A stretch of 64,000 nt of DNA from Alcaligenaceae bacterium (GCA_012727555.1 JAAYGT010000033.1:21921-85920), one strand, 5' to 3'; shown: positions 10,142-38,066, counted from the stretch's first letter. The notes: generated by a model from the sequence alone, not told the origin. Numbers and translations are program-made.

Positions 10142-10927
10142 TCAGGCATCGAACCGTGCGCGCACTGTACCCACCTGGCCGATGCGGGCTTCATAGGTTT
10201 TACCGGCCTCCACCGGCACCATGGGGCCCAGGGCGCCTGTCAGGATCAGGTCGCCGGCACGTAACGGTGTTTTCAGGGCAGCCAGCTTGCGGGCCAACCA
10301 TACGGCGGCATTCAGGGGATGCCCCAGGCAATCACTGCCACGCCCGGTCGAACGAACCTCATCGCCACACAACAGGCTCATGTCAACGGTTTTAAGATCA
10401 AGCCCTTTCAGGGATACCGGCACTGCACCCAGCACCACCAGACCGCTGGACGCGTTGTCGGCCACGGTATCAACGTAGCGAATGTTCCAGTTGGCCACGC
10501 GACTGCCCACCACCTCGATGGCCGGCATGACATAGGCAACCGCATTGATCAGATCCACCAAGGTGGCATCTTCGTGCGTGACATCGCGCTCAAGCACCAG
10601 CGCGATCTCGGCCTCAACCTTGGGTTGCAGCGTGCGACTGACGGGAATGGGCTCGTCGTCACCAAAGACCATATCAGCAAACAAGGTGCCGAAGTCGGGC
10701 TGACTGACACCCAGTTGGCGCTGCACGGCCGGCGAGGTGAGACCGATCTTGCGCCCCACAATGCGACGCCCCCGGGCACACCAGAAATCCACATTGGCCT
10801 GCTGGATGGCGTAGGCCGTGGCTTCATCGTCCTCGGCCACCTGACCGCGAATCGGCTCAATGGGCGTTGCGGTTTCTTCGGCAGTACGCAAGCGCGTGGC
10901 CAGTTCCTGGATCAATGTCGAACTCAT
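10142..10927 (-). CDS. mhpD: 2-keto-4-pentenoate hydratase
   Basis: 261 aa with a MhpD-like sequence ([23 protein letters not shown]), adjacent to mhpB and mhpA. Confidence 0.85.
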
Positions 10928-10988
10928 TCAGATTTCCTTGTAAAAGACGACAGGGCAGGAAACCTGCCCACTGTGGTCGATAGGGTAC

Positions 10989-11933
10989 TCAAATTGAAGA
11001 AGGCTGACCATGCATGACAGCAAAACCGGCGATCCATTCGTCAATCGCACGGTAGTAGTCAAGCTCCGCACGGTAAGGTCCGGTCGCTGCAAGGGCACCG
11101 AAGGCGGCGATCCAGGTACGTATTTCATGGGCCGACTTGCCGCCTTCGCGGGTAATGACCGCATTGGTCAGACCATCAAGCGCCGTCAGGTCACCACTCG
11201 CCAGACTATCCAGAAACGCGCGATCCCATTCCGGATTCAATGGGTGCAGAGGACTGTTGCCCGAGGCAAATGCCTGTGCTGCCGCCACCGTACGCGCCTG
11301 GCGTGCTGCACGCGCCTCGGGGGTCGGGTTGCGGCCTGCGATCAAACGCTCGGCCACTTCGGCATCGGCCCGGGCAATTTCCGGCACGGGTGGCTCATGG
11401 GAAATGCCGCCCGAACCAACCACCAGAACCCGCCTGTTCAATGTGCTCAGGTAACGGCCAATGGCCTGCCCCAGCAAGCGGGATCGACGGGCACTTGCCA
11501 TGGGCGGTGCCACAGAATTGATGAACACCGGAACGACCGGGTAGGCATCAAGCCCACCTGTCAATACCTCAAGGGCCTGGGCACAGCCATGATCCACCTG
11601 CATGCGATACGACACCGCCGTATCGATGTCGGCATCAAGCACCGCCTGGGCCATATCCAGTGCAATGTCGCGCGGCACGTTCAACGGACCCGCCAGGCTT
11701 TTGAAATCACCGACCGCCGAGGCCTCGACTCCGATGCAGAACTGAGGCATGAGATCGTAGAAAAAACCATTGTAGTGGTCAGGCGCAAACACCACGATCA
11801 GTTCCGGATCGTAAGCCCGGACGCGGTCACGAGCTTGCGCCAGCACACTTTCCACCTCGGCAACCACAGTGGCTGCGGGATCGTAGTAGCCATGCAAGGG
11901 CGTATGCGACAGGCATTCCAGCTGGATGCTCAT
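10989..11933 (-). CDS. mhpB: 2,3-dihydroxyphenylpropionate 1,2-dioxygenase (LigB-type extradiol)
   Basis: 314 aa. The N-terminus [19 protein letters not shown] is typical of MhpB. The start overlaps the mhpA stop (ATGA at 11930-11933). Confidence 0.85.
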
Positions 11934-13726
11934 GCGGGATTCTCCGTAAGTGACAGACGCCCGGCCAGGGCAACAATGGTCTGCGAAACTTGCTGGGGCG
12001 AGCAGACCCCGGCCACAAAGCGATCAGGCCTCAGTACGACCACCGAGTGTGCAGAAGCACCGAACCAGTCTTTAAGACGGTTCTGCACATCACCCACGAC
12101 CAACACGTCGTCCGCGACGTCGGCGGTATAGGCCATCTGGACATCCGGTTTCACAACAACAAAAGCTGCACCCAGACGGGCCCAGATAGCACGCGCCTGC
12201 GGGCTGAGAGCGAAGGTGGGGTCCGTGCCCCACGACACGATCGCAAACCGCTGACCGATCACATCGTCGAGCAAAGCCTGCTCACCGGCCACCGTGCGCA
12301 CACGGGGTTGAATGAAGAGGCGACCCACCGGCGATTGGCCGTGAGGATCCTTGCCATGCACAATGCGCCCCCAGAGCGAGTCACGTTTTTCAGCCATCAA
12401 CCCGAGCAAACGCCCGATGGCCGAATTGCCTGCCTTATCGAGCCGCCGTGCCAGCCAACCTTTGGAAACTTTTCTGCGTGGCAACAGCACGACACCCGAC
12501 TCATAACGCGGCATGGGTTTAAAACGCATCTCGACAAAGTAACGCTTGAACGCCGGCACACCATTGAAAAGCCAGGTGAAACCGTCACGCAAGGCGGCTG
12601 CCCAGCGGCTGGGGGGATTGAAAATATCACCCGCCACTTCAGACAGGTGGATCATGGCACGGGCATGGGCCCGACGCTCTTCCCCATAGGTATCGAGCAG
12701 TTTGTCGGAGGCCAGCCCCTTGACCACCATGGCCAGCTTCCAGCCAAGATTGTTGGCATCGCGAATGCCGCTGTTGTAGCCCTGGCCCTGCCAGACCGGC
12801 ATGATGTGGGCGGCATCGCCGGCGAGCAAAACCCGCCCCTGACGGAACGTAGCCGCCAGGCGTGCATTGTGCGTGTAGACCCGTTTACGGATGTAATCGA
12901 CGTTTTCGGGATCCGGGACGACCTTGGACATCAGTGCAGCCAGATTATCCGGCCGGTACAGCTCCTCTTCGGTTTCTCCCGGCATCACCATGAATTCGAA
13001 GCGCCGCACGCCATGTGGCAAAGCGGCAGACACATAGGGGCGTTCAGGATCGCAGTGCAAATAAATGTGTGGTGTACCTACCGGATCGTTGCGTACATCA
13101 ACGACGATCCACTGATTGGCTTTGGTACGACCCTCGAAGGGGATATCGAGTGTTCGACGAATAAAACTGTTGCCGCCATCGGCAGCCACCAGATAGGCTG
13201 CCTGGATCGCTTTTTTACGGCCATCACTGCCCTCGGTGATCACCGTCACCCCTTGAGCATCATGGGTGAAACTGGACACTTTCTGGCTGAACCAGACCGC
13301 GACATTCGGAAAACGGCTCAAGCCACGGTAAAGCAACTGGTCAGCCTGCGGTTGGTGGAACGCATTGCGACGCGACCAACCGAACTCGTCGGTACGGGGC
13401 TCAATCGACGCAAAGCAACGGCCTCGTGGTGTTACGAAACGCATCCAGTGCCAAGGGGTCGTATGGGGCAGCAGTTCATCGGCCAGGCCCACCGACTGAA
13501 AAACCCGCAACGCCTCGTCGTCCAGCCCAATGGCGCGTGGATAATCGATAATGGCATCCAGTTGCTCCAGCATGATCACGCTCACACCTTCGCGCCCCAG
13601 AATATTGGCGATCGTCAGCCCGACAGGGCCGGCCCCCACAATCACGACATCGGCAGACACAACCGCCGATGCCTCGGTGGCAGCATTCACTTCGGGCCCA
13701 ATACCCGTTTCAGACGCGGCCGACAT
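11930..13726 (-). CDS. mhpA: 3-(3-hydroxyphenyl)propionate hydroxylase (FAD monooxygenase)
   Basis: [19 protein letters not shown] Rossmann motif and [25 protein letters not shown] motif, about 598 aa. The start is ATG 13726 or GTG 13732. Confidence 0.85.
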
Positions 13727-13839
13727 ACACACCCCCCCCGATTTTCAATGACCCGCTCATGATTGCTCCTCATTTTTTGAACATGGAATGCGCGCAGTCT
13801 AGCGAAGCAACTTGATCTGGAACAAAAAAAACTTCAAGA

Positions 13840-13856
13840 TGTGCAAGGAGTGCACA
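13840..13856. promoter_or_regulatory. MhpR-type operator candidate TGTGCAAGGAGTGCACA
   Basis: Lies in the mhpA/mhpR divergent region. GTGCA half-sites have the same spacing as the E. coli MhpR site as I recall it (GGTGCACCTGGTGCACA). 12 of 17 positions are identical, and both half-sites are conserved. Confidence 0.45.
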
Positions 13857-13882
13857 GCGTTGATTTAAAAGTGAAAGGCCCA

Positions 13883-14710
13883 ATGACACCCCAGCCCTCC
13901 GACCGATCCCCCTACAGTGCCGTACGCGGTCTGGCACGTGGCCTGCAGGTGCTGCGGGCACTGAACCGTATGCAAAGCGGGCGGGCCTCGGCCCAGCAAC
14001 TCAGTCAGGCAACCGGTTTGCATCGCACCACCGTCAAACGCCTGCTTGAAACACTGGTAACCGAAGGCCTGGTGCGCCGCAGCCCCTCCGATGACAGCTA
14101 CCGGCTCACTCTGCAGGTACGCGACCTCAGCGAAGGCTTCACCGACGATGAATGGATATCGACCGTTGCCGCCCCCCTGATGGGCGAACTGATGCACAGC
14201 GTGATCTGGCCGTCTGATCTGGCAACACCCGATGGCGGAGCCATGATCATTCGCGAAACCACACACCGTTTCAGCCCGCTGTCGTTTCACCGGTCCATGG
14301 TGGGCAGGCGCCTGCCCCTGCTGCTCACGGCCGCCGGACGTGCCTATTTTGCTCGCTGTCCATCAGGCGAACGGGAGCATTTGCTCACGCTGCTGCGCAG
14401 CGGACAAGGGGGTGAAATACAGGCAGCACTGGCCAATGATCCACATTACGTGCGTAACCTGCTCAGAACCTTTGAGGCATGCGGCTACGCCACCAATCGC
14501 GGCGACTGGTCGGAACAGAGCACAATCAGTGCCATTGCAGTGGCCATAGAACACGACAACCGTGTTCTGGGTTCGCTGAATGTGGTTTACCTGACGCGCG
14601 CCCTGAGCGCCGGACAGGCAGTGGAACTGTTCGTTCCACCGCTGCGACATATTGCAACACGCATCTGCACGGGCCTTCGGCAAGCTGCGGCACACAGCCC
14701 GCCTGCCTGA
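13883..14710 (+). CDS. mhpR: IclR family transcriptional activator MhpR
   Basis: Colinear with E. coli MhpR as I recall it (GLHRTTVKRLLETL, VRRSPSDDSYRLTLQVRDLSEGF, RETTHRFSPLSFHRSMVGRRLPLL). ATG 13883 with an AAAGG RBS is preferred to GTG 13841. Confidence 0.8.
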   Translation: MTPQPSDRSPYSAVRGLARGLQVLRALNRMQSGRASAQQLSQATGLHRTTVKRLLETLVTEGLVRRSPSDDSYRLTLQVRDLSEGFTDDEWISTVAAPLMGELMHSVIWPSDLATPDGGAMIIRETTHRFSPLSFHRSMVGRRLPLLLTAAGRAYFARCPSGEREHLLTLLRSGQGGEIQAALANDPHYVRNLLRTFEACGYATNRGDWSEQSTISAIAVAIEHDNRVLGSLNVVYLTRALSAGQAVELFVPPLRHIATRICTGLRQAAAHSPPA

Positions 14711-14723
14711 ATGTGGCAAGACA

Positions 14724-14743
14724 CGGCGGCATGCGAGCCGCCG
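14724..14743. terminator. Short GC hairpin between convergent mhpR and mhpC
   Basis: CGGCGGC-atgcga-GCCGCCG, a 7-bp stem. There is no clear T-run on either strand, so this is a weak call. Confidence 0.3.
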
Positions 14744-14748
14744 GAAGA

Positions 14749-15609
14749 TCAGTGCGTGAAAAAGTCGAGCGTCAGGCGGTTGAACGCCTCGGCATGCTCC
14801 CACTGAGCCCAGTGACCGCACTTGTTGAAAATGTGCATTTGTGCGTTGGGCAGGTTGGCCAACGCACGCAAACCGACATCAAGCGGCACAAAACGGTCGT
14901 TGCGACCCCAGATGATCAGTGTTTCCGCCTGGATTTCATCCATACGGTAACCGTAGTCGGTGAACTGCTTGGGAAATGCCTGCAAACTTCGGACAAAATT
15001 CTGCAGATGCTCGGGGCGGGCAAGAATATTGCTCAGCCGCTGCTCGTACAAATCTTCAGAGAGGCTGCTGGTGTCAAAAACGAAAACCTCCATCATGCGC
15101 TTGAGATTTTCGATGGTGGGATTGCGATACAACTGACCGATCAGCTTGATGCCTTCGGCCGGCATGGGGGTGAACAGACTGGGCCCGCCTGTGCCGCCGC
15201 CCATCAGTATCAGCTTGCCGACACGACCGGGGTTGGCCAACGCGAACGCCGTAGTGCTGTGGGCCCCCATGGAATTGCCAATGATGTGGGCCTTGTTGAT
15301 ATTGAGCGTATCCATGAGCTGAAGCAGGCAGCGCGCATTCAGTTCGGAACGGGATTCTGCGCAGAGAATGGAATCACTTTTGCTCCAGCCCAGGCAATCC
15401 ATGAGAATGACGCGGAAACCGGCGCTGGCAAGCGGCTCGATATTGCGATGAAAGTTGGCCCAGCCACTAGCGCCAGGCCCTGACCCGTGCAACATGACGA
15501 CGACATCGGTACCCGTCAGGGTGTCGTTGTAATGAAGCCGGTACGCTTTGCCACCTTCCTGGATCGTGATGAAATGACTTGTAGATTCTTCGGTAATGCC
15601 TGACGACAT
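14749..15609 (-). CDS. mhpC: 2-hydroxy-6-ketonona-2,4-dienedioate hydrolase (alpha/beta hydrolase)
   Basis: [42 protein letters not shown] and the GNSMGAH nucleophile elbow match MhpC. ATG 15609 with a strong GGGGGA RBS is preferred to ATG 15630. Confidence 0.85.
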
Positions 15610-15735
15610 GAAATTCCCCCTGGTTTGCATTCAAAACGGTGAAAATAACAGACATTGTGCCTTTTTCGGGTTGCGAACGTAAACCAGACATTCAATTGGC
15701 CCCGGCCGCCGACGACCTCCGGAGACCCCAGGCGG

Positions 15736-25608: not shown

Positions 25609-26637
25609 TCAGCCTTGCTGCTTGGCACGCACCAGCGAAAGAGCGGTGTCTTCGATCATGTCTTCCTGGCCACCGACCATCCCGCGACGGCCCATTTCAA
25701 CCAAAATTTCACGGGCAGGAATGCCGAACTTCTGTTCAGCCCGTTTCGCAAACAACAGGAACGAACCATACACACCGGCGTAGCCCAATGTCAGGGCATC
25801 GCGGTCAACACGGATCGGGAAATCCATGATGGGTACGACCAGATCTTCGGCGACGTCCTGGATCTTGAAAACATCCACCCCGGTCTCAATGCCCATCAGG
25901 TCGAGCACGGCAACCAGCACTTCCATGGGCGTATTACCGGCACCGGCACCCAGACCGGCAGCAGCCGCATCGATACGGTCGGCACCGACTTCAATAGCGG
26001 CAATACTGTTGGCCACACCCATGGCCAGGTTGTGGTGGCCGTGGAAACCCAGTTCTGTTTCGGGCTTGAGGGCATCGCGCACAGCCTGCAGACGCTCTTT
26101 CACTGTACCAGGCAGCAAGTGGCCGGCGGAATCCGTGATGTAGATACAGTTCGCACCGTAGCTTTCCATCAGGCGTGCCTGCTTGACCAGACCTTCGGGG
26201 CTGTTCATGTGGCTCATCATCAGAAAACCGACCGTATCCATACCCAGTTTGCGACCCAGGGTAATGTGCTGTTCCGACACATCGGCTTCAGTACAGTGGG
26301 TGGCCACACGAATGGTGGTCACGCCCAGATCGTGGGCCATTTTCAGGTGATCCACAGTGCCAATGCCGGGCAACAACAAGGCCGAGACCTTGGCCTGCTT
26401 CAACTGGGGAATCACGGCGCTCAGGTATTCTTCGTCGCTGTGCGCAGGAAAGCCGTAGTTCACGGACGCACCGCCCAGACCATCACCGTGAGTGACTTCG
26501 ATCAGGGGAATGCCGGCCTCATCGAGCCCGCGGGCGATGGAAACCATCTGGTCCAGCGTGATCTGGTGACGCTTGGGGTGCATGCCATCGCGCAGGCTCA
26601 TGTCATGCAGAACGATTTTCTTGGTAGTTGCAGTCAT
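25609..26637 (-). CDS. mhpE: 4-hydroxy-2-oxovalerate aldolase
   Basis: 342 aa. [19 protein letters not shown] and [13 protein letters not shown] match DmpG/MhpE-type aldolases. AAGGAGA RBS. Confidence 0.9.
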
Positions 26638-26651
26638 GGTGTTCTCCTTGC

Positions 26652-27548
26652 TCAGGCGGTTTCGGCCGCGATCATCTGTTCGGCAAACATTTCGGCGGTA
26701 CGTGCTGCGGCAGCTGTCATGATGTCAAGGTTGCCCGAATACTTGGGCAGGTAGTCGCCCAGGCCTTCCACTTCCAGATAGATGGAAACGCGGTTGCCAT
26801 CGAACACCGGACCGTTGACCAGACGATAGCCCGGCACATACTTCTGCACTTCCTTGATCATGGCGTGCACCGATTCGGTGATACGGGCCTGATCGGGTTC
26901 ATCATCGGTCAGGCAGTGCACGGTATCACGCATGATCAGCGGCGGTTCGGCCGGGTTCAGAATGATGATGGCCTTGCCTTCGCGAGCGCCACCCACACGT
27001 TCGACCGCGCCGGCGGTGGTGCGGGTGAACTCATCAATGTTCTTGCGTGTACCGGGACCGGCCGATTTGGAAGACACCGTAGCCACGATTTCAGCGTATT
27101 TAACCGACTGCACACGCGAAACGGCATGCACCATGGGAATGGTGGCCTGACCGCCGCACGTCACCATGTTCACGTTTTTCTCGCCACGACCCAGGTGTTC
27201 CTGCAGGTTGACCGGAGGCACACAGAACGGGCCAATGGCTGCCGGCGTGAGATCGATCATCATCACGCCCAGTGCGGTGAGCTTGTCGGAGTTGTCTTTG
27301 TGCACATAGGCACTGGTTGCATCGAATGCAATCTGGATGTTGTCTGCCTTGACATGCGGCACCAGGGCATCGACCCCTTCTGCCGTCGTCTTGATACCCA
27401 GTGCCGCAGCGCGCTTCAAGCCATCGGACTCAGGATCGACCCCGACCATCCAGACAGGTTCCAGTACAGGGCTGCGCATGAGCTTGGCCAGAAGGTCCGT
27501 GCCGATGTTGCCCGGGCCAATAATGGCGCAACGAAGTTTTTTCGCCAT
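26652..27548 (-). CDS. mhpF: Acetaldehyde dehydrogenase (acetylating)
   Basis: 298 aa. [19 protein letters not shown] and [12 protein letters not shown] match DmpF/MhpF. Located immediately upstream of mhpE. Confidence 0.9.
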
Positions 27549-30487: not shown

Positions 30488-30718
30488 GAGGTATCTCCGT
30501 TTTGATGTTTTTGATCGAAGGAAGGCCGTTATGCAACACGGCACATAGAGCGGCGGACTGAAAAGCCAGGGAATCAATCACATAGAGACGTGCATTTCAC
30601 CCATTCAAGCCACAGCGTTTCTGCGAGGATTGTAAAATGCACCCATACATTTATCAACTATTGAATTTTAATCTCAATATTTGAGAAAAATTATTAACGA
30701 ATTTCTGGATACCGCACC

Positions 30719-32149
30719 ATGACTCATTCACAACCTGCCATCGCTTTTGATCCCGTCCAGGCACAGACCGTTGTTCAGGCACTGCGTGATTGCCTGGATC
30801 CTGCCGGACTGCTGACCGGTGATGACATCGGCGCCCGTTATCTGACCGACTGGAGCGGCGAGCCGGGTCAAATGCCGCTGGCGGTGGCGCGCCCATCCAC
30901 CACGGAACAGGTTGCCGCCGTATTGAAGGTGTGTACAGCCCACAGCTGGCCGGTTGTACCTCAGGGCGGGCTCACCGGCCTGGCCGGCGGGGCGGTACCG
31001 GCGCAGCACGCCGTTGCCTTGTCGCTTGATCGCATGAGCGGTATTGAGGCAATAGACACCGCCAATGCCACCCTGACCGTGCTGGCTGGCACGCCACTGC
31101 AAACCATCCAGGAAGCCGCCGAAGGTGCCGGTTTTTTCTTTCCTCTGGATCTGGGCGCACGCGGCTCCTGCCAGATTGGCGGGAATATCGGCACCAACGC
31201 CGGGGGCAACCGGGTGATCCGCTACGGCATGACACGCGATCTGGTGCTGGGGCTGGAAGTGGTCCTGCCTGATGGCACGGTGCTGTCCATGATGAACAAA
31301 ATGATCAAGAACAACGCTGGCCCCGACCTGAAAGGCCTGTTCATCGGCACCGAAGGCACGCTGGGGGTTGTCACGCGCGCGGTGCTGCGCCTGCATCCGG
31401 GTGTCAAGGGGGCCAATACCGCGCTGGTAGCTGTCAGTGATTTTGACGCGGTCATCAAACTGCTGCGTCATGCGCAGCAACAGCTTTCGGGTCGCGTCAG
31501 CGCCTTTGAAGTCATGTGGTCGGACTACTACCGCTGCGCCACCACCGCAGGCGGAATACGTGCCCCCTTGCCGTCCGACTACCCGATCTACGTCCTGATG
31601 GATATGCAGGGCTCGGAGCCCGAAGCTTCGGCACCGCTATTCGAGTCCGTGCTGGAACATGCCCTGGCCCAGGGCTGGGCGCTGGACGCCGCCGTTGCCC
31701 AGTCGCATGCCGACACCCTGGCGTTCTGGGCGCTGCGCGATTCGATCGGTGAAATGCTCAAGACATTTGCGCCCACCATCAATTTTGACGTGTCGTTCCC
31801 CATTTCCCTGATGGGCGAAGGGGTAGAGCGGCTGCGTCAGATCATGGACACACAATTCCCGGGCATTCAAGCCATGTATTTCGGCCACGTGGGTGATGGC
31901 AACGTGCACATTGTGGTGGGCCCACTGCCCGATGATGCTCGCAAAACCGAACACGCCATTGAAGACGCTTTCTACCAGGTGACTGCGGCCCTGGAAGGGT
32001 CCGTATCCGCCGAACACGGCATTGGCCTGCACAAGAAGCCTTATCTGCACTACAGCCGCACACCGGAAGAGCTGGCACTGATCCGCACGCTGAAGCAGGC
32101 GATCGACCCGAAAGGCATCATGAATCCGGGGAAAATACTGTCGATGTGA
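30719..32149 (+). CDS. FAD-linked oxidase (GlcD / D-2-hydroxyacid dehydrogenase family)
   Basis: 476 aa. PCMH-type FAD-binding block VVPQGGLTGLAGGAVP and C-terminal SAEHGIGLHKKPYL, typical of D-lactate/glycolate oxidase-like enzymes. Confidence 0.8.
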   Translation: MTHSQPAIAFDPVQAQTVVQALRDCLDPAGLLTGDDIGARYLTDWSGEPGQMPLAVARPSTTEQVAAVLKVCTAHSWPVVPQGGLTGLAGGAVPAQHAVALSLDRMSGIEAIDTANATLTVLAGTPLQTIQEAAEGAGFFFPLDLGARGSCQIGGNIGTNAGGNRVIRYGMTRDLVLGLEVVLPDGTVLSMMNKMIKNNAGPDLKGLFIGTEGTLGVVTRAVLRLHPGVKGANTALVAVSDFDAVIKLLRHAQQQLSGRVSAFEVMWSDYYRCATTAGGIRAPLPSDYPIYVLMDMQGSEPEASAPLFESVLEHALAQGWALDAAVAQSHADTLAFWALRDSIGEMLKTFAPTINFDVSFPISLMGEGVERLRQIMDTQFPGIQAMYFGHVGDGNVHIVVGPLPDDARKTEHAIEDAFYQVTAALEGSVSAEHGIGLHKKPYLHYSRTPEELALIRTLKQAIDPKGIMNPGKILSM

Positions 32150-32207
32150 GGGTGGGTTGACACGAAGGGTAAGAAAACACCGCCAACGCGATTGGCCTTA
32201 CTTTCAG

Positions 32208-32224
32208 GGTGCACAATGTGCACC
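32208..32224. promoter_or_regulatory. 17-bp palindrome GGTGCACAATGTGCACC, MhpR-type operator candidate
   Basis: Perfect 8-bp arms, about 70 nt upstream of the Rieske alpha-subunit start. 13 of 17 positions are identical to the recalled E. coli MhpR site, with the same half-site spacing as 13840-13856. Confidence 0.5.
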
Positions 32225-32295
32225 TTCCTTTGAAGAATCGTTGATACAGATCAAGGCGAAACCTACCATGGCCTCCTACCGAAAGGAGAACTTCC

Positions 32296-33561
32296 ATGGA
32301 CACCTACACCCCCGAAACACTTCAGGCGCTGGTTGATGACCAGCCTGAAGAATTCCGCGTTTCCACCGCTGCCTACCGTGGCAAAGAAATTTTTGAAGAA
32401 GAAATGGACCGGATTTTCCATAAAACGTGGATCTTCCTGTGCCATGAAAGCGAGATCGCCAAACCGGGTGATTTTAAATCCACCCAACTGGGCTCCCGTC
32501 CGGTCATCGTGTCACGCGCACGCGACGGCAAGATCCACGCATTGTTGAACGTCTGTACACACCGGGGCGCCACACTGTGCCGTGAAGAGCACGGCAATAC
32601 CCGTGCGTTCGTCTGCCCCTACCATGGGTGGTCATTCCGCCCCTCGGGTGAATTGATCGGCATACCCGACGAAGACCGCTACCACGCCTGTTTCAACAAA
32701 GCCGATAAAAACCTGAAAGCTGTTCCCCGCGTTGCCTCGTACGGCGGGCTGGTTTTCGGTTCTTTCAACCCGGATGTCGAGCCACTGGAAGACTTCCTGG
32801 GGGGCGCGAAACAACACATCGACATCTGGCTCAAGCGTACAGCAGGCGGCACCTACCGCGTATCCACTGCACACAAATACGGTTACGACGGCAACTGGAA
32901 ATTCCAGGCTGAAAACGTCTGTGACGGCTATCACCCCGGATTTGTACACCGGTCTGCCTTCAATACAGTAAGCAAATTCTCGGGCTCATTCGAAAACCGG
33001 GCTCTGGACGTTGCTGTGCGCCAGCAAGGCTATACACGCGGCTACCCGGAAGGCCATGGAACACTGGAAGCCGGTGCACCGCTGGAGTCGGGCGGCATTG
33101 ATCCTGACGTTCGCCAAGCTTACAACGACCAACTGACAGCGCTATACGGTGAAGAAGGTGCTGCAGAAGTATTGACCAACCGCCAATTCCTGATTTTCCC
33201 CAACCTGACCATCTTCGACTTCAATATTCGTGTCATTCAACCCATCAGTCATGATCGTACCGAGGTTTATTCCTACCCGCTCATGATCGAAGGTGCCCAC
33301 GACCAGATCAACAGCAACCGCATGCTCGATGCACAAACCCGAGTGGGCACGGCCGGTATTCTTTCAGCCGATGACATCGATGTATTTGCCGGTGGACAAA
33401 ACGCCCTGAAAGCCGAAGGGTTTGACTGGATCACACTGAGCCGAGGCCTGGGTAAAGAAGAGATCAAGCCCGATGGCGAACGTGTTGGCGTTTATAGCGA
33501 TGAAGTACCGCAACGTGCGTTCTGGCGCAAATGGCGCTCAATGATGAAAAGCGACTCTTGA
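32296..33561 (+). CDS. Aromatic ring-hydroxylating dioxygenase alpha subunit (Rieske, benzoate/anthranilate-like group)
   Basis: Rieske motif CTHRGATLC...CPYHGWSF and mononuclear iron motif DGYHPGFVH. The N-terminal region resembles the BenA/AntA/XylX group. GAAAGGAGA RBS. Confidence 0.85.
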   Translation: MDTYTPETLQALVDDQPEEFRVSTAAYRGKEIFEEEMDRIFHKTWIFLCHESEIAKPGDFKSTQLGSRPVIVSRARDGKIHALLNVCTHRGATLCREEHGNTRAFVCPYHGWSFRPSGELIGIPDEDRYHACFNKADKNLKAVPRVASYGGLVFGSFNPDVEPLEDFLGGAKQHIDIWLKRTAGGTYRVSTAHKYGYDGNWKFQAENVCDGYHPGFVHRSAFNTVSKFSGSFENRALDVAVRQQGYTRGYPEGHGTLEAGAPLESGGIDPDVRQAYNDQLTALYGEEGAAEVLTNRQFLIFPNLTIFDFNIRVIQPISHDRTEVYSYPLMIEGAHDQINSNRMLDAQTRVGTAGILSADDIDVFAGGQNALKAEGFDWITLSRGLGKEEIKPDGERVGVYSDEVPQRAFWRKWRSMMKSDS

Positions 33562-33582
33562 ACACAGACCCCTGGAACCACC

Positions 33583-34068
33583 ATGACACATGCTATTGAA
33601 AAACTGATTTTGCGTGAAGCCCAGTTGCTGGATGCCGGAAAACTGGATGACTGGCTGGCGCTGTACACCGAGGATGCCACCTATTGGCTTCCTATTGATG
33701 AAACCGTTGATCCGCTTAAAGAATCTTCGATCATCTTCGACAACCACATACGCCTGGCAATGCGTGTCGAACAGATCATGCGTCAGGCACGCGTGGCACA
33801 GCAACCGCCATCACAAACACTGCGCATGATTTCGAATGTTGATGTACAGGAAAGCACGGACGAGACCGCCACAGTGAACTACGCCCTGTTGATGACCGAA
33901 GTGCGTTCCGGCGACTGGCGCCAGAACGGGCTGGGACAAACGCGTTTCTTCCCGGGTCATTGCACCGTCAAGGCACGAAACGTGAATGGCGACTGGAAAA
34001 TTTGCCAGAAAACCATTGTGCTGCTGAACCGGCACCAACCCATCGTAGGTATGTCCTTCATCATCTAA
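33583..34068 (+). CDS. Aromatic ring-hydroxylating dioxygenase beta subunit
   Basis: 161 aa with an NTF2-like beta-subunit pattern (REAQLLDAGKLDDWLALYTEDATYW). Immediately follows the alpha subunit. Confidence 0.85.
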   Translation: MTHAIEKLILREAQLLDAGKLDDWLALYTEDATYWLPIDETVDPLKESSIIFDNHIRLAMRVEQIMRQARVAQQPPSQTLRMISNVDVQESTDETATVNYALLMTEVRSGDWRQNGLGQTRFFPGHCTVKARNVNGDWKICQKTIVLLNRHQPIVGMSFII

Positions 34069-34148
34069 AACTGATACCGGAATCGTGGGCTGACAGCTGA
34101 CTGAAACGGCCAACAGCTCCACATCAACATTATCCCCTGGAGAAGACA

Positions 34149-35132
34149 ATGAATCCTTCCAAACGTGCTTTCTGTACCTGGACCGGCGCCGCACTGTTGG
34201 CGCTGTCCACAACATTCGGCAGTCTGGCGACCGCACAGGCCGCCTATCCTGAAAAACCCGTTACACTGGTTGTACCGTTTGCACCGGGTGGGTCTTCGGA
34301 CAGCGCCACACGCATTCTGGCCGAACTCCTTGGCACAAAGTGGAAGCAATCTGTCATCGTGCAGAACAAACCGGGCGCACTGGGTTCGATTGGTGCCATG
34401 TCCGTTGCAAAGGCCCCCGCCGACGGCTACACACTGCTCGTAGCACCGGTTTCAATTGGCACGATCGAACTGTTCCTGAAAAACCCAGGCTTCAATCGTG
34501 ACACCGATCTGGCCCCCATTACCCAGTTTGCCAAGGGTGACTATGTTCTGTCAGTCGGCAAGGACATTCCTGTCTCGACCATGGCCGAACTGGTCGAGTA
34601 TTCACGTCAGCGCCCGGAACAAGTGTTTCATGGCGCCTTTGGCGGCGCATCGCGCCTGGCCTTTGAAAGTTTTGCCCTGCAAAACGATATCCAACCCACA
34701 AACACCAATTATCGCGGCGAGGCCTTGACCTTGACCGCCCTGGCGGGCGGTGAAATCCAGGTGGCACTGACTACTTTAGTGGGCGCTCGCCCCTTCATTG
34801 AATCAGGCCGCATCAAGGCGCTGGGCATTCCTGCCAAAGAGCGCTCACCCCTGGCACCCAATATTCCTACCTCGGATGAAAGCGGAGCGAAAAACTTCTA
34901 CGCCGATTTCTGGTTCGGTCTGATGGCACCGGGCCAAACCCCTGAACCCCTGCGCGCGCAGATAGCCGCCGATGTTGCCGAGGTTCTGGCACGTCCGGAA
35001 GTTCAAACCCGCTTTCAGGAACTGGGCTTGCTGGCACGCTCATCAACCCCAGCCGAATTTGCAGCATTGATCAAACATGAATCAGAACGCTGGGTTGAGG
35101 TTGCCAAAAAAATTGGTCTTGAACCCCAGTAA
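34149..35132 (+). CDS. Bug family (TctC-like) substrate-binding protein
   Basis: 327 aa. Signal peptide, YPEKPVTLVVPFAPGGSSD and NKPGALGSIGA Bug blocks. Embedded within the dioxygenase operon. Confidence 0.9.
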   Translation: MNPSKRAFCTWTGAALLALSTTFGSLATAQAAYPEKPVTLVVPFAPGGSSDSATRILAELLGTKWKQSVIVQNKPGALGSIGAMSVAKAPADGYTLLVAPVSIGTIELFLKNPGFNRDTDLAPITQFAKGDYVLSVGKDIPVSTMAELVEYSRQRPEQVFHGAFGGASRLAFESFALQNDIQPTNTNYRGEALTLTALAGGEIQVALTTLVGARPFIESGRIKALGIPAKERSPLAPNIPTSDESGAKNFYADFWFGLMAPGQTPEPLRAQIAADVAEVLARPEVQTRFQELGLLARSSTPAEFAALIKHESERWVEVAKKIGLEPQ

Positions 35133-35186
35133 GCAGCATACCGCCCACAGCGCCCCGTTTTCACATACCCATCAGGACTTTTGATC

Positions 35187-36221
35187 ATGTTGACTGTCAG
35201 CAAAGTAGCCGCCGGATCAGGCGGCCTAGCCATCCGGCACGCCGAACCCCGGGAACCCGGCCCAGGTGAAATTATGCTGAAGGTACACGCTGCCGGTGTC
35301 TGTGGCACCGATATGCAGATCTACCACAGCTACGGCGCCATTGCCAAACGTGTGAAACTTCCAACCACACTGGGCCATGAAGCCTGCGGCACGGTGGTAC
35401 AAACGGGTCTGGGTGTGGATCGGGTCAGTGTGGGCGATCTGGTCAGTCTGGAAAGCCACATACCCTGTGGGCGGTGCAAAGCGTGTCACACGGGTCGTGC
35501 ACATGTCTGCCCGAATACACGGTATCCAGGTATCGATATCGATGGCACATTCGCAGAATATGTAACCGTGCCGGCTGAAATCGCCTGGGTAAACCCCAAA
35601 GGCACCGACCCTGCACTGGCCGCGCTGCTTGAACCTCTGGGCATTGCCGTCCATGCAACCCTGGAAGGCTCCGGGGTATCCGGTCAAACAGTTGTCGTCA
35701 ACGGCTGCGGCCCGATCGGATTGATGAATGTGGCAGTGGCACGCCACTTCGGTGCCCATAAAATCATTGCATTTGACCCCAATCCGGGGCGTCGTGCCAT
35801 TGCCGAACGCATGGGAGCCGACATCGTGGCGGACCCGTCCAGTGTGTCTCCACCGCACCTTGTGAACGAGTCAACGCGCGGTGATGGTGCCGATGTTGTG
35901 TTCGAATACAGCGGCAATGAACAAGGTGCCCTGAACTGTTTCGCCATGGTGGGCTCATTGGGCGACGTTCGATGGTGCGCCACACCGGGCCAACCCATGA
36001 CCTTTGACTTCGGGGCATGGCGCAAAGGGCGCCCGACCATCTACAACATCCACGGACGACGTATCTGGTCGACCTGGCACGCCATGGCACCCCTCGTTTA
36101 CGAGAAAAAAATCGATCTCGAACCCGTTATCAGTCACCGCCTTCCGCTGTCTGAAGGCGTCAAGGCCTTTGAACTGATCGTGGCCGGCGCAGCCATCAAA
36201 CCCCTGATCATGTGCTCCTGA
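35187..36221 (+). CDS. Zinc-dependent alcohol dehydrogenase (MDR family)
   Basis: GHEACGTVV catalytic-zinc motif, CGRCKACHTGRAHVC structural-zinc cluster, VNGCGPIGL NAD motif. ATG 35187 is preferred to TTG 35181. Confidence 0.85.
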   Translation: MLTVSKVAAGSGGLAIRHAEPREPGPGEIMLKVHAAGVCGTDMQIYHSYGAIAKRVKLPTTLGHEACGTVVQTGLGVDRVSVGDLVSLESHIPCGRCKACHTGRAHVCPNTRYPGIDIDGTFAEYVTVPAEIAWVNPKGTDPALAALLEPLGIAVHATLEGSGVSGQTVVVNGCGPIGLMNVAVARHFGAHKIIAFDPNPGRRAIAERMGADIVADPSSVSPPHLVNESTRGDGADVVFEYSGNEQGALNCFAMVGSLGDVRWCATPGQPMTFDFGAWRKGRPTIYNIHGRRIWSTWHAMAPLVYEKKIDLEPVISHRLPLSEGVKAFELIVAGAAIKPLIMCS

Positions 36222-36226
36222 TTATC

Positions 36227-37183
36227 ATGACTTCATCCATTCCCCTTCGTATCAAGCGCATTGAAACAGTCGCACTGGATGTCAAATTTCTGACACTGCA
36301 CCATCGCGATGACGCACCCCTGCCTGACTGGCAAGCCGGTGCCCACATTGAACTGGAATTGCCCAACGGACTGGTACGCAGTTATTCCCTGTTAAACAGG
36401 CCGGGTGAGACCGGGCATTACCAGATCGCGGTGCATAAATCACCCACCAGCGCCGGCGGGTCCCGCTGCGTTCACGAGGCATTGTCCGAGGGCAGCGAAC
36501 TCTCTGCACAAGCGCCCCGCAACCACTTCCCCCTGCATGAAGAAGCGGGTCATTCATGCCTGATCGCTGGCGGCATTGGCATCACGCCACTGATGGCCAT
36601 GGCGCAGCGTCTTAACCAGTTGGGCCGCCGTTGGGAATTGCACTACTGCGTGCGCACGCCGGAACATGCAGCCTTCGTCAGGGAACTGCAGACGCTGGCC
36701 GATGAGCACGGAAACCACTTCGTATGCCATTTCGATCAAGTCTCCGACGCTAATCCACTCGACATCGCCGCCACTGTGCGCACGGGCAACGCTGACACGC
36801 ACTGGTACTGCTGCGGCCCTACCGGCATGCTTGAGGCCTTTGAACAGGCCACAAAACACTGTCGTGACAGGGCCCATGTGGAATACTTCGGTGCCAAACA
36901 AGAGGCCGCCCTTGAGGGTGGCTACACGATCGAGCTTGCCCGTAGTGGCAAAACCCTGCACGTCCCGCCCGGACGCTCTATACTCGATGTCGTGCTGGCT
37001 GCAGGCATCAATGTGAAAACATCCTGCCGTGAAGGTATATGCGGCAGTTGTGAAACCGGCATTATTGAAGGCGAAGCCGATCACCGTGATGCCCTTCTTA
37101 CGCCTGAAGAACAGGCAGAAAACACAACCATGATGATCTGTTGCTCCGGTGCCAAATCCGGAAAACTGGTGCTTGATCTTTAA
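36227..37183 (+). CDS. PDR/VanB-type oxygenase reductase (FMN + NAD + [2Fe-2S])
   Basis: RSYSL FMN motif, GGIGITPLMAM NAD motif, C-terminal CREGICGSCETGII...MICCS plant-type ferredoxin. ATG 36227 is preferred to GTG 36212. Confidence 0.85.
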   Translation: MTSSIPLRIKRIETVALDVKFLTLHHRDDAPLPDWQAGAHIELELPNGLVRSYSLLNRPGETGHYQIAVHKSPTSAGGSRCVHEALSEGSELSAQAPRNHFPLHEEAGHSCLIAGGIGITPLMAMAQRLNQLGRRWELHYCVRTPEHAAFVRELQTLADEHGNHFVCHFDQVSDANPLDIAATVRTGNADTHWYCCGPTGMLEAFEQATKHCRDRAHVEYFGAKQEAALEGGYTIELARSGKTLHVPPGRSILDVVLAAGINVKTSCREGICGSCETGIIEGEADHRDALLTPEEQAENTTMMICCSGAKSGKLVLDL

Positions 37184-37217
37184 GTATTTTCCCGGGCGAA
37201 ACCTGGTTTCGTCCGTC

Positions 37218-38060
37218 ATGCGCCCCCCCATGCCCTCCACCGAACAACCCGACCCCGTTTACCGACATTGTGAATCCCTGATCAAAGGGCTGTCACTGCT
37301 GGCCGAACTGAACCGCTCTCCCAACGCAAGCGCGGTCATTTCGGAACTGTCAAGAACCACCGGTTTACATCGCACCACTGTCAAACGACTGCTCGAAACA
37401 CTTAAACACGCGGGCTATCTTGAGCACGATCTCATCACCAATGAATACCGGTTGTCATTTCGTGTGCTGCAACTCAGTTACGGTTATCGTGACACCACAC
37501 GGGTAACCGAGCTGGCATGGCCGTTCATGCGCACCTTCACACAGAAAATGGTCTGGCCTTGTTCGCTGGTGGCACCTGAAGGCGACGAAATGGTGGTCCG
37601 GATATCCACCCGCCCCTACAGCAAACTTTCGTTTCACCCTGGCATGCCCGGCCGGCGGATGCCCATGGTCACCACAGCCGCTGGCCGGGCTTACTTTGCT
37701 TTTGCCTCGAAAGCAGCCCAGGAAACCCTGCTGGCTATGCTGTGCCACAAACCTGACATCGCCAAAGCCAGACACCATCACAGCGCATCCTGGATACACG
37801 ATGTCATGGATCAGACACGGACGCGTGGCTATGCAATAAACCGTGGCGAATGGGAAGACGAACCACGATTCAGTGCGTTTGCTGTACCCATACGGAATAC
37901 AACCGGTGAGGCGATCGTGGCACTGAATGTGATTTTCCTGACTACAGCGGTCAAGACACCACAAGCCCAGAACAAACTGCTCGAAGGGTTGCATGAAACT
38001 GCGCGGGCCATTGAAGCAGCATACGCCCAGAATGCCCTTGAGATACACCGCTCTGCATGA
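37218..38060 (+). CDS. IclR family regulator, MhpR paralog
   Basis: Shares the 15-aa HTH segment TGLHRTTVKRLLETL and the LSFH...GRR...TAAGRAYFA blocks with the mhpR product at 13883-14710. Start is ATG 37218 or ATG 37230. Confidence 0.8.
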   Translation: MRPPMPSTEQPDPVYRHCESLIKGLSLLAELNRSPNASAVISELSRTTGLHRTTVKRLLETLKHAGYLEHDLITNEYRLSFRVLQLSYGYRDTTRVTELAWPFMRTFTQKMVWPCSLVAPEGDEMVVRISTRPYSKLSFHPGMPGRRMPMVTTAAGRAYFAFASKAAQETLLAMLCHKPDIAKARHHHSASWIHDVMDQTRTRGYAINRGEWEDEPRFSAFAVPIRNTTGEAIVALNVIFLTTAVKTPQAQNKLLEGLHETARAIEAAYAQNALEIHRSA

Positions 38061-38066
38061 AAGGAA

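What the first reader, a model, noticed from the sequence alone, without database searches (positions are those of the whole stretch)
32296..38060. Hybrid aromatic-acid dioxygenase cluster: possible non-orthologous Hca-like feeder into the mhp pathway
The parts are mixed in a way I do not recognise from characterised systems. The alpha/beta oxygenase is benzoate/anthranilate-group, the reductase is a class IA phthalate-dioxygenase-reductase type (FMN + 2Fe-2S) rather than BenC-type, and no separate ferredoxin is present. The dehydrogenase is a Zn-dependent MDR enzyme where SDR (BenD, HcaB) or PdxA-type (TphB) diol dehydrogenases are usual. A Bug receptor sits inside the operon, as with tphC/iphC in the terephthalate and isophthalate clusters. 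The IclR regulator is an MhpR paralog. Given the MhpR-type operator and the adjacent mhp genes, one hypothesis is dioxygenation and dehydrogenation of phenylpropionate/cinnamate-type acids to 2,3-dihydroxyphenylpropionate. That would be functionally analogous to E. coli hcaEFCBD but built from different families. An unknown aromatic carboxylate is equally possible.
Basis: inference. Interest (0 to 1): 0.62.

Follow-up and report, generated by a model that had tools for sequence, protein, structure and literature searches.

The report
Portable phenylpropionate dioxygenase cassette feeding mhp
A self-contained, strain-variable six-gene cassette most likely turns 3-phenylpropionate (or cinnamate) into the catechol that the mhp ring-cleavage pathway consumes, using protein families different from those of the only characterised system (E. 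coli hca); this rests on comparative genomics and has no biochemical test yet.

Summary
Window 32296-38060 (+) encodes a Rieske oxygenase alpha and beta subunit, a TctC/Bug binding protein, a Zn-dependent MDR dehydrogenase (Tdh/polyol-DH-like), a phthalate-dioxygenase-reductase-type reductase and an MhpR-like IclR regulator. There is no ferredoxin gene.

- In 10 of 14 related loci from other genera (Advenella, Pigmentiphaga x3, Xenophilus, Parapusillimonas, Noviherbaspirillum, Pollutimonas, Pseudomonas putida, Alkalilimnicola), the same module lies in one operon with, or divergent from, mhpB and mhpC, usually also mhpD, mhpF and mhpE, and no mhpA lies beside it.
- The linked MhpC proteins are 63-66% identical to E. 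coli MhpC. Two different MhpB lineages have been recruited.
- Four of these genomes have no MhpA at all.
- A GTGCAC-N3-GTGCAC operator, the same pattern as in the E. coli mhpR-mhpA intergenic region, lies upstream of alpha in 14 of the 15 loci that include the upstream region.

The alpha subunit is not an HcaE or BenA ortholog. Metagenome contigs show near-identical strains that lack exactly 32158-38063, so the module is a presence/absence cassette. No paper describing it was found.

Verdict: a new variant of a known kind, with moderate interest.

The parts
32158..38063 (.). Strain-variable cassette holding the whole module. Near-identical strains join 32157 to 38064, with about 70 other bases in between.
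   Evidence: read laying joints in runs X28 and X9, from different studies, at depth 11 against 1-5 for the module. Runs X1 and X4 carry the module at the same depth as the flanks. No flanking repeats were found.
32208..32224 (.). MhpR-type operator GGTGCACAATGTGCACC, a perfect palindrome of the form GTGCAC-N3-GTGCAC.
   Evidence: The exact GTGCA-N4-GTGCA pattern occurs only twice in the 64-kb window, here and at 13841. It is conserved upstream of alpha in L001-L010, L017 and L089-L091. E. coli mhpR-mhpA has GGTGCACCTGGTGCACA.
32241..32269 (+). Sigma-70-like promoter, TTGATA-17-TACCAT, just downstream of the operator. This places the operator at an activator-type position.
   Evidence: Consensus scan only.
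32296..33561 (+). Rieske oxygenase alpha subunit, 421 aa.
   Evidence: PF00355 and PF00848. Ligand motifs present. Below every NCBIfam equivalog cut-off. 33% identical to HcaE.
33583..34068 (+). Rieske oxygenase beta subunit, 161 aa.
   Evidence: PF00866, 86 bits.
34149..35132 (+). TctC/Bug periplasmic binding protein, the presumed uptake receptor for the acid substrate.
   Evidence: PF03401, 160 bits. Conserved at this position in the Burkholderiales loci. Replaced by TAXI-TRAP, MFS or porin genes in the gammaproteobacterial loci.
35181..36221 (+). Zn-dependent MDR dehydrogenase, proposed NAD-dependent cis-dihydrodiol dehydrogenase.
   Evidence: ADH_N and ADH_zinc_N. Tdh model score 306, below the 458 cut-off. 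TDH structure 2DQ4 at E 1e-82. All Zn ligands and GCGPIG present. It is the only dehydrogenase in the complete operons of relatives.
36212..37183 (+). PDR-type (class IA) reductase with flavin, NAD and C-terminal plant-type 2Fe-2S domains. An ATG at 36227 is an alternative start.
   Evidence: Pfam domain order. 2PIA at E 5.5e-64 and IadC 7YLR at E 3e-59. RSYS, GGIGITP and CxxxxCxxC motifs.
37218..38060 (+). IclR-family regulator, a paralog of MhpR. The longest ORF starts at 37149.
   Evidence: NF007341 score 233, below the 269 cut-off. Recognition segment TGLHRTTVKRLLETL is identical to that of E. coli and window MhpR.
10142..15630 (.). The genome's only mhp set, the presumed consumer of the module's product: mhpD 10142-10927(-), mhpB 10989-11933(-), mhpA 11930-13732(-), mhpR 13841-14710(+), mhpC 14749-15630(-). 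A second operator lies at 13841-13857.
   Evidence: NCBIfam hits above cut-off for MhpB, MhpD and MhpR. A single copy of each in the 3.37-Mb genome.
25609..27548 (-). mhpE (25609-26637) and mhpF (26652-27548), the tail of a dctPQM TRAP operon.
   Evidence: TIGR03217 score 560 and TIGR03215 score 479, both above cut-off. These are the only copies in the genome.

Best explanation
The six genes form a self-contained 'upper pathway' cassette for 3-phenylpropionate, probably also cinnamate.
1. The TctC/Bug protein captures the acid in the periplasm for a TctAB-type carrier.
2. The PDR-type reductase passes electrons from NADH through its flavin and 2Fe-2S cluster directly to the alpha/beta Rieske oxygenase. 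No ferredoxin is involved.
3. The oxygenase adds O2 at ring carbons 2,3 and gives the cis-dihydrodiol.
4. The Zn-dependent MDR dehydrogenase re-aromatises it with NAD+ to 3-(2,3-dihydroxyphenyl)propionate.
5. This catechol is cleaved by MhpB and processed by MhpC, MhpD, MhpF and MhpE. In this genome these are the single mhp set elsewhere in the same window.
6. The MhpR-like IclR protein controls the cassette through a GTGCAC-N3-GTGCAC operator upstream of a sigma-70-like promoter.

Shown here: gene content, motifs, synteny, the operator and the cassette polymorphism.
Inferred: the substrate, the regiochemistry, the role of the MDR enzyme and the sign of regulation.
For: Linkage to the mhp lower pathway:
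- Module plus mhpB-D-F-E-C in one operon: L008 Parapusillimonas, L011 Pollutimonas and L002 Advenella. L091 Alkalilimnicola has the module plus mhpB-mhpC in one operon.
- mhp genes divergent from the module: mhpB-D-F-E-C in L007 Xenophilus and L010 Noviherbaspirillum, mhpB-mhpC in L003, L004 and L006 Pigmentiphaga, and mhpB-C-D-F-E in L089 P. putida.
- No mhpA lies beside the module in any of these loci.

Identity of the linked lower-pathway genes:
- L008 MhpB passes NF009910 (338 against a cut-off of 291), and L008 MhpD passes NF008461 (403 against 350).
- MhpC is 66% (L008), 63% (L089) and 65% (L091) identical to E. coli MhpC. MhpB is 67% (L089) and 63% (L091) identical to E. coli MhpB.
- Two MhpB lineages that are about 45% identical to each other are both joined to the module, which indicates independent recruitment.

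Whole genomes:
- The Xenophilus, Parapusillimonas, Noviherbaspirillum and Pollutimonas genomes have no MhpA. In three of them the only MhpB is the one beside the module.
- All 8 carrier genomes without an adjacent mhpB have an MhpB homolog elsewhere.
- In an Acidovorax MAG, the MhpB of the lineage that sits in the L008 operon lies next to an MhpA.

Operon logic: the MDR enzyme is the only candidate diol dehydrogenase in the complete operons.

Regulation: the operator and the identical recognition helix, and the promoter position.

Own genome: it has no HcaE ortholog and a single mhp set.

Habitat: digester, wastewater, manure and landfill. Phenylpropionate from anaerobic phenylalanine fermentation is expected in such places (established knowledge, not tested here).
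Against: - No enzyme, growth or induction data exist for any member.
- In this particular genome the cassette is 17-22 kb from mhpB and mhpC, and near-identical strains lack it, so its contribution here is not shown.
- The lower pathway constrains the catechol (a carboxyethyl or carboxyvinyl side chain), but not ring substituents or close analogues.
- Four carrier loci (window, Acidovorax L001 and L090, Herminiimonas L009, Marinobacter L017) show no adjacent mhp genes. L005 (Pigmentiphaga MAG) also shows none and has only alpha, beta and tctC.
- No paper was found that describes an MDR-type arene cis-dihydrodiol dehydrogenase.
- The Pigmentiphaga loci lack the reductase gene inside the module.
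Confidence: 0.75

Rival explanations
1. The module attacks a different aromatic acid, for example a ring- or side-chain-substituted arylpropionate, 2-arylpropionates such as ibuprofen-type drugs, or phenylbutyrate. Its catechol is merely accepted by MhpB/MhpC-like enzymes, and phenylpropionate is not the physiological substrate.
For: - The alpha subunit is far from every characterised oxygenase: at most about 35% identity to solved structures and below all equivalog cut-offs.
- The MhpB lineage of the L008-type operons is only 44% identical to E. coli MhpB.
- The organism lives in wastewater, digester and landfill samples rich in xenobiotics.
- The module is rare: 0 of 400 other sampled Burkholderiales carry it.
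Against: - The linked hydrolases are 63-77% identical to bona fide MhpC proteins, and in P. putida and Alkalilimnicola the linked MhpB is 63-67% identical to E. coli MhpB.
- The L008-lineage MhpB sits next to MhpA in an Acidovorax MAG.
- The regulator shares its operator and recognition helix with MhpR.
Confidence: 0.15
2. The Rieske enzyme works as a monooxygenase, for instance hydroxylating 2- or 3-hydroxyphenylpropionate or a side chain. The Zn-MDR enzyme oxidises a side-chain or other alcohol, not a ring cis-dihydrodiol.
For: - Rieske oxygenases of this superfamily include monooxygenases and demethylases (hits to GbcA and salicylate 5-hydroxylase).
- MDR enzymes usually oxidise ordinary alcohols or polyols.
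- An alphaproteobacterial relative (L016) has an MhpA-like gene directly upstream of alpha-beta-MDR.
Against: - The MDR gene is kept beside alpha and beta even in distant relatives (L015 and L016, 54-63% identical) and in every complete operon. These operons would otherwise lack any step between dioxygenation and MhpB.
- Carrier genomes without MhpA need a full route from the unhydroxylated ring.
Confidence: 0.06
3. In this genome the cassette is a recently acquired passenger that is not integrated into metabolism. It would be expressed poorly or not at all, and its product would not be channelled into the resident mhp pathway.
For: - The cassette is a presence/absence polymorphism among near-identical strains, and in two runs the empty-site form is at higher depth.
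- GC content is slightly lower than in the flanks.
- It brought no lower-pathway genes of its own.
- Only scattered metatranscriptome contigs match it.
Against: - All six ORFs are intact, with all ligand residues.
- The cassette carries its own regulator, operator and promoter.
- The same operator type precedes the resident mhpA.
- The host holds a complete single mhp set.
Confidence: 0.04

Closest known systems
E. coli hcaEFCBD (3-phenylpropionate/cinnamate dioxygenase plus HcaB dehydrogenase) feeding mhpBCDFE
   Same: The proposed chemistry and pathway logic are the same: ring 2,3-dioxygenation, dehydrogenation to 2,3-dihydroxyphenylpropionate, then the MhpB/C/D/F/E meta-cleavage route. The oxygenase is an alpha/beta Rieske enzyme in both.
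   Different: - Alpha is 33% and beta 29% identical to HcaE and HcaF. The HcaE model scores 223 against a cut-off of 830. In the tree HcaE lies across a long branch, together with NahAc.
- Electron transfer uses one PDR-type protein where E. coli has the HcaC ferredoxin plus the HcaD reductase.
- The dehydrogenase is a Zn-MDR enzyme; HcaB is an SDR.
- The regulator is IclR/MhpR-like; HcaR is LysR-type.
- Uptake uses a Bug receptor; HcaT is an MFS carrier.
IadCDE of Variovorax (indole-3-acetate dioxygenase; PDB 7YLS/8H2T and 7YLR; PMC10374108)
   Same: A two-component system: an alpha/beta Rieske oxygenase served directly by a PDR-type flavin/2Fe-2S reductase, acting on an aryl-alkanoic acid. 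The reductase here matches IadC at E 3e-59.
   Different: - Alpha matches IadD only at E 2e-54, no closer than it matches naphthalene dioxygenase.
- The iad regulators are MarR-type (PMC9613470, title).
- The genes linked to this module (Zn-MDR dehydrogenase, mhp lower pathway) point to a different substrate and a different fate of the product.
Terephthalate system TphA1A2A3-TphB-TphC, and isophthalate IphABCD
   Same: An aromatic-acid Rieske dioxygenase operon that includes a Bug/TctC receptor and a diol dehydrogenase.
   Different: - TphA2 matches alpha only at E 9e-33.
- From memory, not tested here: TphB is PdxA-like; the diol there carries the carboxylate and is decarboxylated to protocatechuate. 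Here the linked lower pathway is MhpB-type extradiol cleavage.
Benzoate/toluate 1,2-dioxygenase BenABC/XylXYZ with BenD/XylL
   Same: BenA gives the best partial NCBIfam hit (260 bits). In the tree XylX falls on the same side of the deepest split as this family. Both are two-component systems.
   Different: - The BenA cut-off is 781 bits, far above the score.
- The reductase there is BenC-type, with an N-terminal Fer2 domain.
- The dehydrogenase there is an SDR.
- The product there is catechol, reached by decarboxylation.

Membership tests
Rieske non-haem iron ring-hydroxylating oxygenase (alpha/beta type) | Rieske CxH...CxxH cluster motif in the alpha subunit | tested here: met
   C87-T-H89 and C107-P-Y-H110. 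PF00355, 77 bits.
Rieske non-haem iron ring-hydroxylating oxygenase (alpha/beta type) | 2-His-1-carboxylate iron site in the catalytic domain | tested here: met
   E206/D210/H213/H218 (ENVCDGYHPGFVH) and D360, all invariant in 18 homologs. PF00848, 49 bits.
Rieske non-haem iron ring-hydroxylating oxygenase (alpha/beta type) | Separate beta subunit encoded next to alpha | tested here: met
   PF00866, 86 bits, 21 nt downstream of alpha.
HcaE (3-phenylpropionate dioxygenase alpha, NF042946 equivalog) | Score above the curated equivalog cut-off, meaning orthology to E. coli HcaE | tested here: not met
   223 bits against a cut-off of 830. 33% identity. Separated from HcaE in the tree.
BenA / AntA (benzoate or anthranilate 1,2-dioxygenase alpha equivalogs) | Score above the curated equivalog cut-off | tested here: not met
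   TIGR03229: 260 against 781. TIGR03228: 214 against 672.
Class IA (phthalate dioxygenase reductase type) oxygenase reductase | Domain order flavin-binding, NAD-binding, then C-terminal plant-type 2Fe-2S, in one polypeptide | tested here: met
   FAD_binding_6 residues 12-106, NAD_binding_1 residues 117-210, Fer2 residues 242-312. 2PIA at E 5.5e-64 over the full length.
Class IA (phthalate dioxygenase reductase type) oxygenase reductase | FMN, not FAD, as the flavin | not testable with these tools
   Only an RSYS motif like that of PDR is seen. The cofactor must be determined on the protein.
Zn-dependent medium-chain dehydrogenase/reductase (polyol/threonine-DH branch) | Catalytic Zn ligands, four-Cys structural Zn site and a Rossmann GxGxxG motif | tested here: met
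   C41, H66, E67; C96, C99, C102, C110; GCGPIG. PF08240 and PF00107.
L-threonine 3-dehydrogenase (TIGR00692 equivalog) | Score above the equivalog cut-off | tested here: not met
   306 bits against a cut-off of 458. The gene sits in a Rieske operon.
MhpR (IclR-family activator of mhp; NF007341) | Score above the equivalog cut-off | tested here: not met
   233 bits against a cut-off of 269 for the cassette regulator. The window's true MhpR scores 408.
MhpR (IclR-family activator of mhp; NF007341) | Recognition helix and GTGCAC-N3-GTGCAC operator as at the E. coli mhp promoter | tested here: met
   TGLHRTTV(K/R)RLLETL is shared. The operator is at 32208-32224 and in 13 related loci; the E. coli site was read directly. 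Binding itself was not tested.
Upper pathway of the mhp (2,3-dihydroxyphenylpropionate) meta-cleavage route | Genetic linkage to bona fide mhpB and mhpC, without another source of the catechol | tested here: met
   10 of 14 related loci are linked. Four genomes lack MhpA. In the window itself the mhp genes are 5-22 kb away, not adjacent.
Upper pathway of the mhp (2,3-dihydroxyphenylpropionate) meta-cleavage route | Enzymatic conversion of 3-phenylpropionate or cinnamate to the 2,3-catechol | not testable with these tools
   Needs expression and HPLC/MS.

The most novel reading that the evidence does not exclude
The cassette is a portable 'plug-in' that gives any host with an mhp pathway the ability to use phenylpropionate. 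It contains the first arene cis-dihydrodiol dehydrogenase of the Zn-dependent MDR (threonine/polyol-DH-like) family. It would also be only the second genetically defined 3-phenylpropionate dioxygenase system, built from different families than hca. It has been captured independently next to two MhpB lineages in beta- and gammaproteobacteria.
Probability: 0.6. Interest if true: 0.6.

Novelty: new variant of a known kind. Interest (0 to 1): 0.55.

Why it matters
A 2023 paper (PMC9956071) states that 3-phenylpropionate catabolism has been worked out genetically only in E. coli K-12. The compound is a major product of anaerobic phenylalanine breakdown and of plant phenylpropanoid turnover.

A second, non-orthologous upper pathway would have several uses:
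- It would allow correct annotation of a family now labelled only 'aromatic ring-hydroxylating oxygenase'.
- It would add a new enzyme family (Zn-MDR) to the known cis-dihydrodiol dehydrogenases.
- It would add a second example, after IadCDE, of alpha/beta Rieske oxygenases served by PDR-type reductases.
- It would show catabolic modularity: one six-gene cassette with its own MhpR-like regulator, docked repeatedly onto mhp lower pathways and variable between near-identical strains.

The prediction can be tested directly by complementing an E. coli hca deletion.

Tried and rejected
- Order-wide co-occurrence statistic. The alpha subunit was found in 0 of 400 other sampled Burkholderiales genomes. 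The module is therefore too rare for a phyletic test, and the argument rests on physical linkage.
- Plasmid collection. All 380 hits were below 60% identity, with the listed best at 34-38% and generically annotated, so no characterised relative turned up.
- Literature. Searches for phenylpropionate with Rieske, TctC or PDR, and for MDR-type or zinc-dependent dihydrodiol dehydrogenases, found no description of this system.
- GlcD-like FAD oxidase (30719-32149) as part of the operon: rejected. It is not conserved in relatives, it lies outside the cassette border, and a promoter and operator lie between it and alpha.
- The second Rieske alpha on contig C34 as the true HcaE: rejected. It is 37% identical to HcaE, scores 357 bits against a cut-off of 830, and is linked to HpaG-like and aldehyde dehydrogenase genes.
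- Terminal repeats, an IS element or an integrase at the cassette borders in the window: none found.
- RNA evidence. Only a few 151-nt metatranscriptome contigs match, too few to judge expression or co-transcription.
- Structure prediction was not run. The tool returns no coordinates, so the substrate pocket could not have been analysed.
- The tree has only three characterised references (HcaE, XylX, NahAc), so the deep placement ('benzoate group side') is tentative.

Full report
**Observation**

The window holds six co-directional ORFs at 32296-38060. Pfam and NCBIfam identify them as follows.

| Gene | Coordinates | Assignment |
|---|---|---|
| alpha | 32296-33561 | Rieske oxygenase alpha (Rieske + Ring_hydroxyl_A) |
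| beta | 33583-34068 | Ring_hydroxyl_B |
| tctC | 34149-35132 | TctC/Bug binding protein |
| MDR | 35181-36221 | Zn-dependent MDR dehydrogenase |
| reductase | 36212-37183 | Flavin domain, NAD domain, C-terminal plant-type 2Fe-2S |
| IclR | 37149/37218-38060 | IclR-family regulator |

- The reductase matches phthalate dioxygenase reductase 2PIA at E 5.5e-64 over its full length, and IadC (7YLR) at E 3e-59.
- The MDR enzyme is closest to threonine dehydrogenases (2DQ4, E 1e-82) but scores below the Tdh equivalog cut-off (306 against 458).
- All metal ligands are present: Rieske C87/H89/C107/H110; iron H213/H218/D360; catalytic Zn C41/H66/E67; structural Zn C96/C99/C102/C110; reductase CxxxxCxxC.
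- The gene spacing leaves no room for a ferredoxin gene.

**Not an ortholog of any characterised oxygenase**

- Alpha is below every NCBIfam equivalog cut-off: BenA 260 against 781, HcaE 223 against 830, AntA 214 against 672.
- It matches solved structures only at the level shared by the whole superfamily: HcaE 8K0A at 2e-59, naphthalene dioxygenase at 1e-57, IadD 7YLS at 2e-54, TphA2 at 9e-33.
- It is 33% identical to E. coli HcaE.
- In a maximum-likelihood tree of 48 sequences, the 12 module-type alphas form one clade (SH-aLRT 100) inside a large uncharacterised family. HcaE, NahAc and the genome's other Rieske alpha lie across a branch of length about 2. XylX joins the family's side. With only three references the deep placement is tentative.
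- About 530 homologs exist in the large protein collection. Their names are generic ones such as 'aromatic ring-hydroxylating oxygenase', or pipeline labels such as 'benzoate/toluate 1,2-dioxygenase alpha subunit', which the NCBIfam scores above do not support.

**Comparative genomics: the key result**

A scan of 185,579 species genomes gave 80 related loci. Twelve of them (L001-L011, L017) carry alphas 69-86% identical to the window's. Three more loci were fetched by exact protein look-up, two of them from genera not in the scan. In these loci the core alpha-beta-(tctC)-MDR-reductase-IclR is conserved. The Pigmentiphaga loci L003, L004 and L006 lack the reductase gene in the module. L005, a Pigmentiphaga MAG, has only alpha, beta and tctC.

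| Arrangement | Loci |
|---|---|
| Module plus mhpB-mhpD-mhpF-mhpE-mhpC in one operon | L008 Parapusillimonas granuli, L011 Pollutimonas, L002 Advenella |
| Module plus mhpB-mhpC in one operon | L091 Alkalilimnicola |
| mhpB-D-F-E-C divergent from the module | L007 Xenophilus, L010 Noviherbaspirillum |
| mhpB-mhpC divergent from the module | L003, L004, L006 Pigmentiphaga |
| mhpB-C-D-F-E divergent from the module | L089 Pseudomonas putida |

No mhpA lies beside the module in any of these loci. The linked lower-pathway genes are genuine:

- L008 MhpB passes the 3-carboxyethylcatechol 2,3-dioxygenase model (338 against 291), and L008 MhpD passes the 2-keto-4-pentenoate hydratase model (403 against 350).
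- The hydrolases are 63-66% identical to E. coli MhpC and 77% identical to the window's MhpC.
- In P. putida the linked proteins, in E. coli gene order, are identical to their E. coli counterparts as follows: MhpB 67%, MhpC 63%, MhpD 65%, MhpF 78%, MhpE 83%.
- Two MhpB lineages that are only about 45% identical to each other are both found joined to the module. This argues for repeated, independent selection of the linkage.

**Whole-genome checks**

- Xenophilus, Parapusillimonas, Noviherbaspirillum and Pollutimonas have no MhpA homolog (E <= 1e-80). In three of them the sole MhpB is the one beside the module. There the Rieske module is the only visible source of the catechol that MhpB cleaves.
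- All eight carrier genomes without adjacent mhp genes hold an MhpB homolog elsewhere.
- In an Acidovorax MAG, the MhpB of the lineage found in the L008 operon sits next to an MhpA. This ties that lineage to 2,3-dihydroxyphenylpropionate.
- In complete operons such as L008 or L091, the MDR enzyme is the only dehydrogenase available to turn a cis-dihydrodiol into the catechol.
- The window's own genome (3.37 Mb, 99.9% complete) has one mhpABCDFE set, all inside this window, and no HcaE ortholog.

**Regulation**

- A perfect palindrome GGTGCACAATGTGCACC lies at 32208-32224, just upstream of a sigma-70-like promoter at 32241-32269.
- The exact pattern GTGCA-N4-GTGCA occurs only twice in 64 kb. 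The other site is in the mhpA/mhpR intergenic region at 13841.
- The same motif lies upstream of alpha in L001-L010, L017, L089, L090 and L091, 75-120 bp upstream in most of them.
- The E. coli mhpR-mhpA intergenic region contains GGTGCACCTGGTGCACA. From memory, this is the published MhpR operator.
- The cassette regulator is only 35-37% identical to the MhpR proteins. It shares their recognition segment TGLHRTTVKRLLETL exactly.

It is thus a paralog with the same DNA target and a different effector domain. Cross-talk between the two regulators at both promoters is plausible but untested.

**The module is a cassette**

- In two runs from different studies (X28, X9), contigs at depth about 11 join window position 32157 to 38064, with about 70 other bases in between. 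The module is covered only at depth 1-5 in those runs.
- In runs X1 and X4 the module has the same depth as its flanks.
- Near-identical strains therefore differ by exactly the block from operator to IclR. No repeats or mobility genes flank it here.
- In P. putida an integrase gene lies about 1.2 kb downstream of the module. In Acidovorax carolinensis the module sits among housekeeping genes.
- GC content is slightly lower than in the flanks.
- The DNA is found in digester, wastewater, manure and landfill metagenomes.

**Proposed mechanism**

1. The Bug receptor delivers 3-phenylpropionate or cinnamate.
2. The PDR-type reductase feeds electrons directly to the alpha/beta oxygenase.
3. 2,3-dioxygenation gives the cis-dihydrodiol.
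4. The Zn-MDR enzyme oxidises one secondary alcohol with NAD+, and the product tautomerises to 2,3-dihydroxyphenylpropionate. Relatives in this MDR branch act on vicinal diols and polyols.
5. MhpB, MhpC, MhpD, MhpF and MhpE complete the breakdown.

The gene content, motifs, linkage, operator and polymorphism are shown. The substrate, the regiochemistry and the dehydrogenase role are inferred.

**Comparison with known systems and novelty**

- Functionally the module parallels E. coli hcaEFCBD, but every component comes from a different family or subfamily.
- The pairing of an alpha/beta oxygenase with a PDR-type reductase has a precedent in IadCDE (PMC10374108), so that feature alone is not new.
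- A Bug receptor inside an aromatic-acid dioxygenase operon recalls the terephthalate system (from memory).
- PMC9956071 (2023) states that 3-phenylpropanoate catabolism has only been elucidated in E. coli K-12.
- No paper describing this module or an MDR-type arene diol dehydrogenase was found in the held library.

I rate it a new variant of a known kind, of moderate interest. It can be tested directly by complementing an E. coli hca deletion.

**Limits**

- There are no biochemical or expression data.
- The order-level sample contained no other carrier, so no phyletic statistic could be made.
- The reference set in the tree is small.
- In this genome the lower-pathway genes are not adjacent to the cassette.

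Noticed in passing
own genome contig C34 (locus L086) 1-8746: A second, unrelated aromatic-acid Rieske cluster. It holds two TctC genes, a BenC-type reductase (N-terminal Fer2), an alpha subunit (37% identical to HcaE), an SDR dehydrogenase lying between alpha and beta, the beta subunit, an HpaG-like double FAA-hydrolase protein and an aldehyde dehydrogenase. It looks like a dioxygenase feeding a homoprotocatechuate-type meta pathway. The substrate is unknown.
   Followed up: partly
window 25609-30577 (minus strand): mhpF and mhpE are the tail of a dctP-dctQ-dctM TRAP transporter operon, away from the other mhp genes. They are about 56% identical to the mhpF and mhpE genes linked to the module in relatives. 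They are 81-82% identical to a second mhpFE pair in Xenophilus (L007:1710-3654).
   Followed up: partly
L089 (Pseudomonas putida CP113097.1) 3277-16680: The module plus an E. coli-like mhpBCDFE set lies between an OprD-family porin/MFS pair and a phage-type integrase (15775-16680), which suggests a genomic island. There is no TctC gene in this locus.
   Followed up: no
L090 (Acidovorax carolinensis CP021361.1) 10001-16741: The module carries two tandem TctC genes (59% and 35% identical to the window's). It is inserted between holA and arginase, lptE and leuS housekeeping genes, with no mhp genes within 10 kb.
   Followed up: no
L078 and L080 (Comamonadaceae MAG, Ottowia thiooxydans): A distant branch of the same alpha family (40-42% identity) again shows tctC, alpha, beta and a PDR-type reductase (39-42% identical to the window's). 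The alpha/beta + PDR + Bug architecture therefore recurs beyond the module clade.
   Followed up: no
L016 (alphaproteobacterial MAG) 6294-10796: An MhpA-like flavin monooxygenase gene (40% identical) lies directly upstream of alpha, beta and the Zn-MDR gene (53-55% identical to the window's).
   Followed up: no
L017 (Marinobacter MAG) 9753-14191 and L091 (Alkalilimnicola) 7705-8853, 15846-17819: In gammaproteobacterial carriers the Bug receptor is replaced by a TAXI-type TRAP system. In Marinobacter there is also a DcaP-like outer-membrane porin next to the module.
   Followed up: no
window 31901-31915: A partial copy of the operator half-site (AACGTGCACATTGTG) lies inside the GlcD-like FAD oxidase gene, about 300 bp upstream of the real operator. 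It is probably chance.
   Followed up: no
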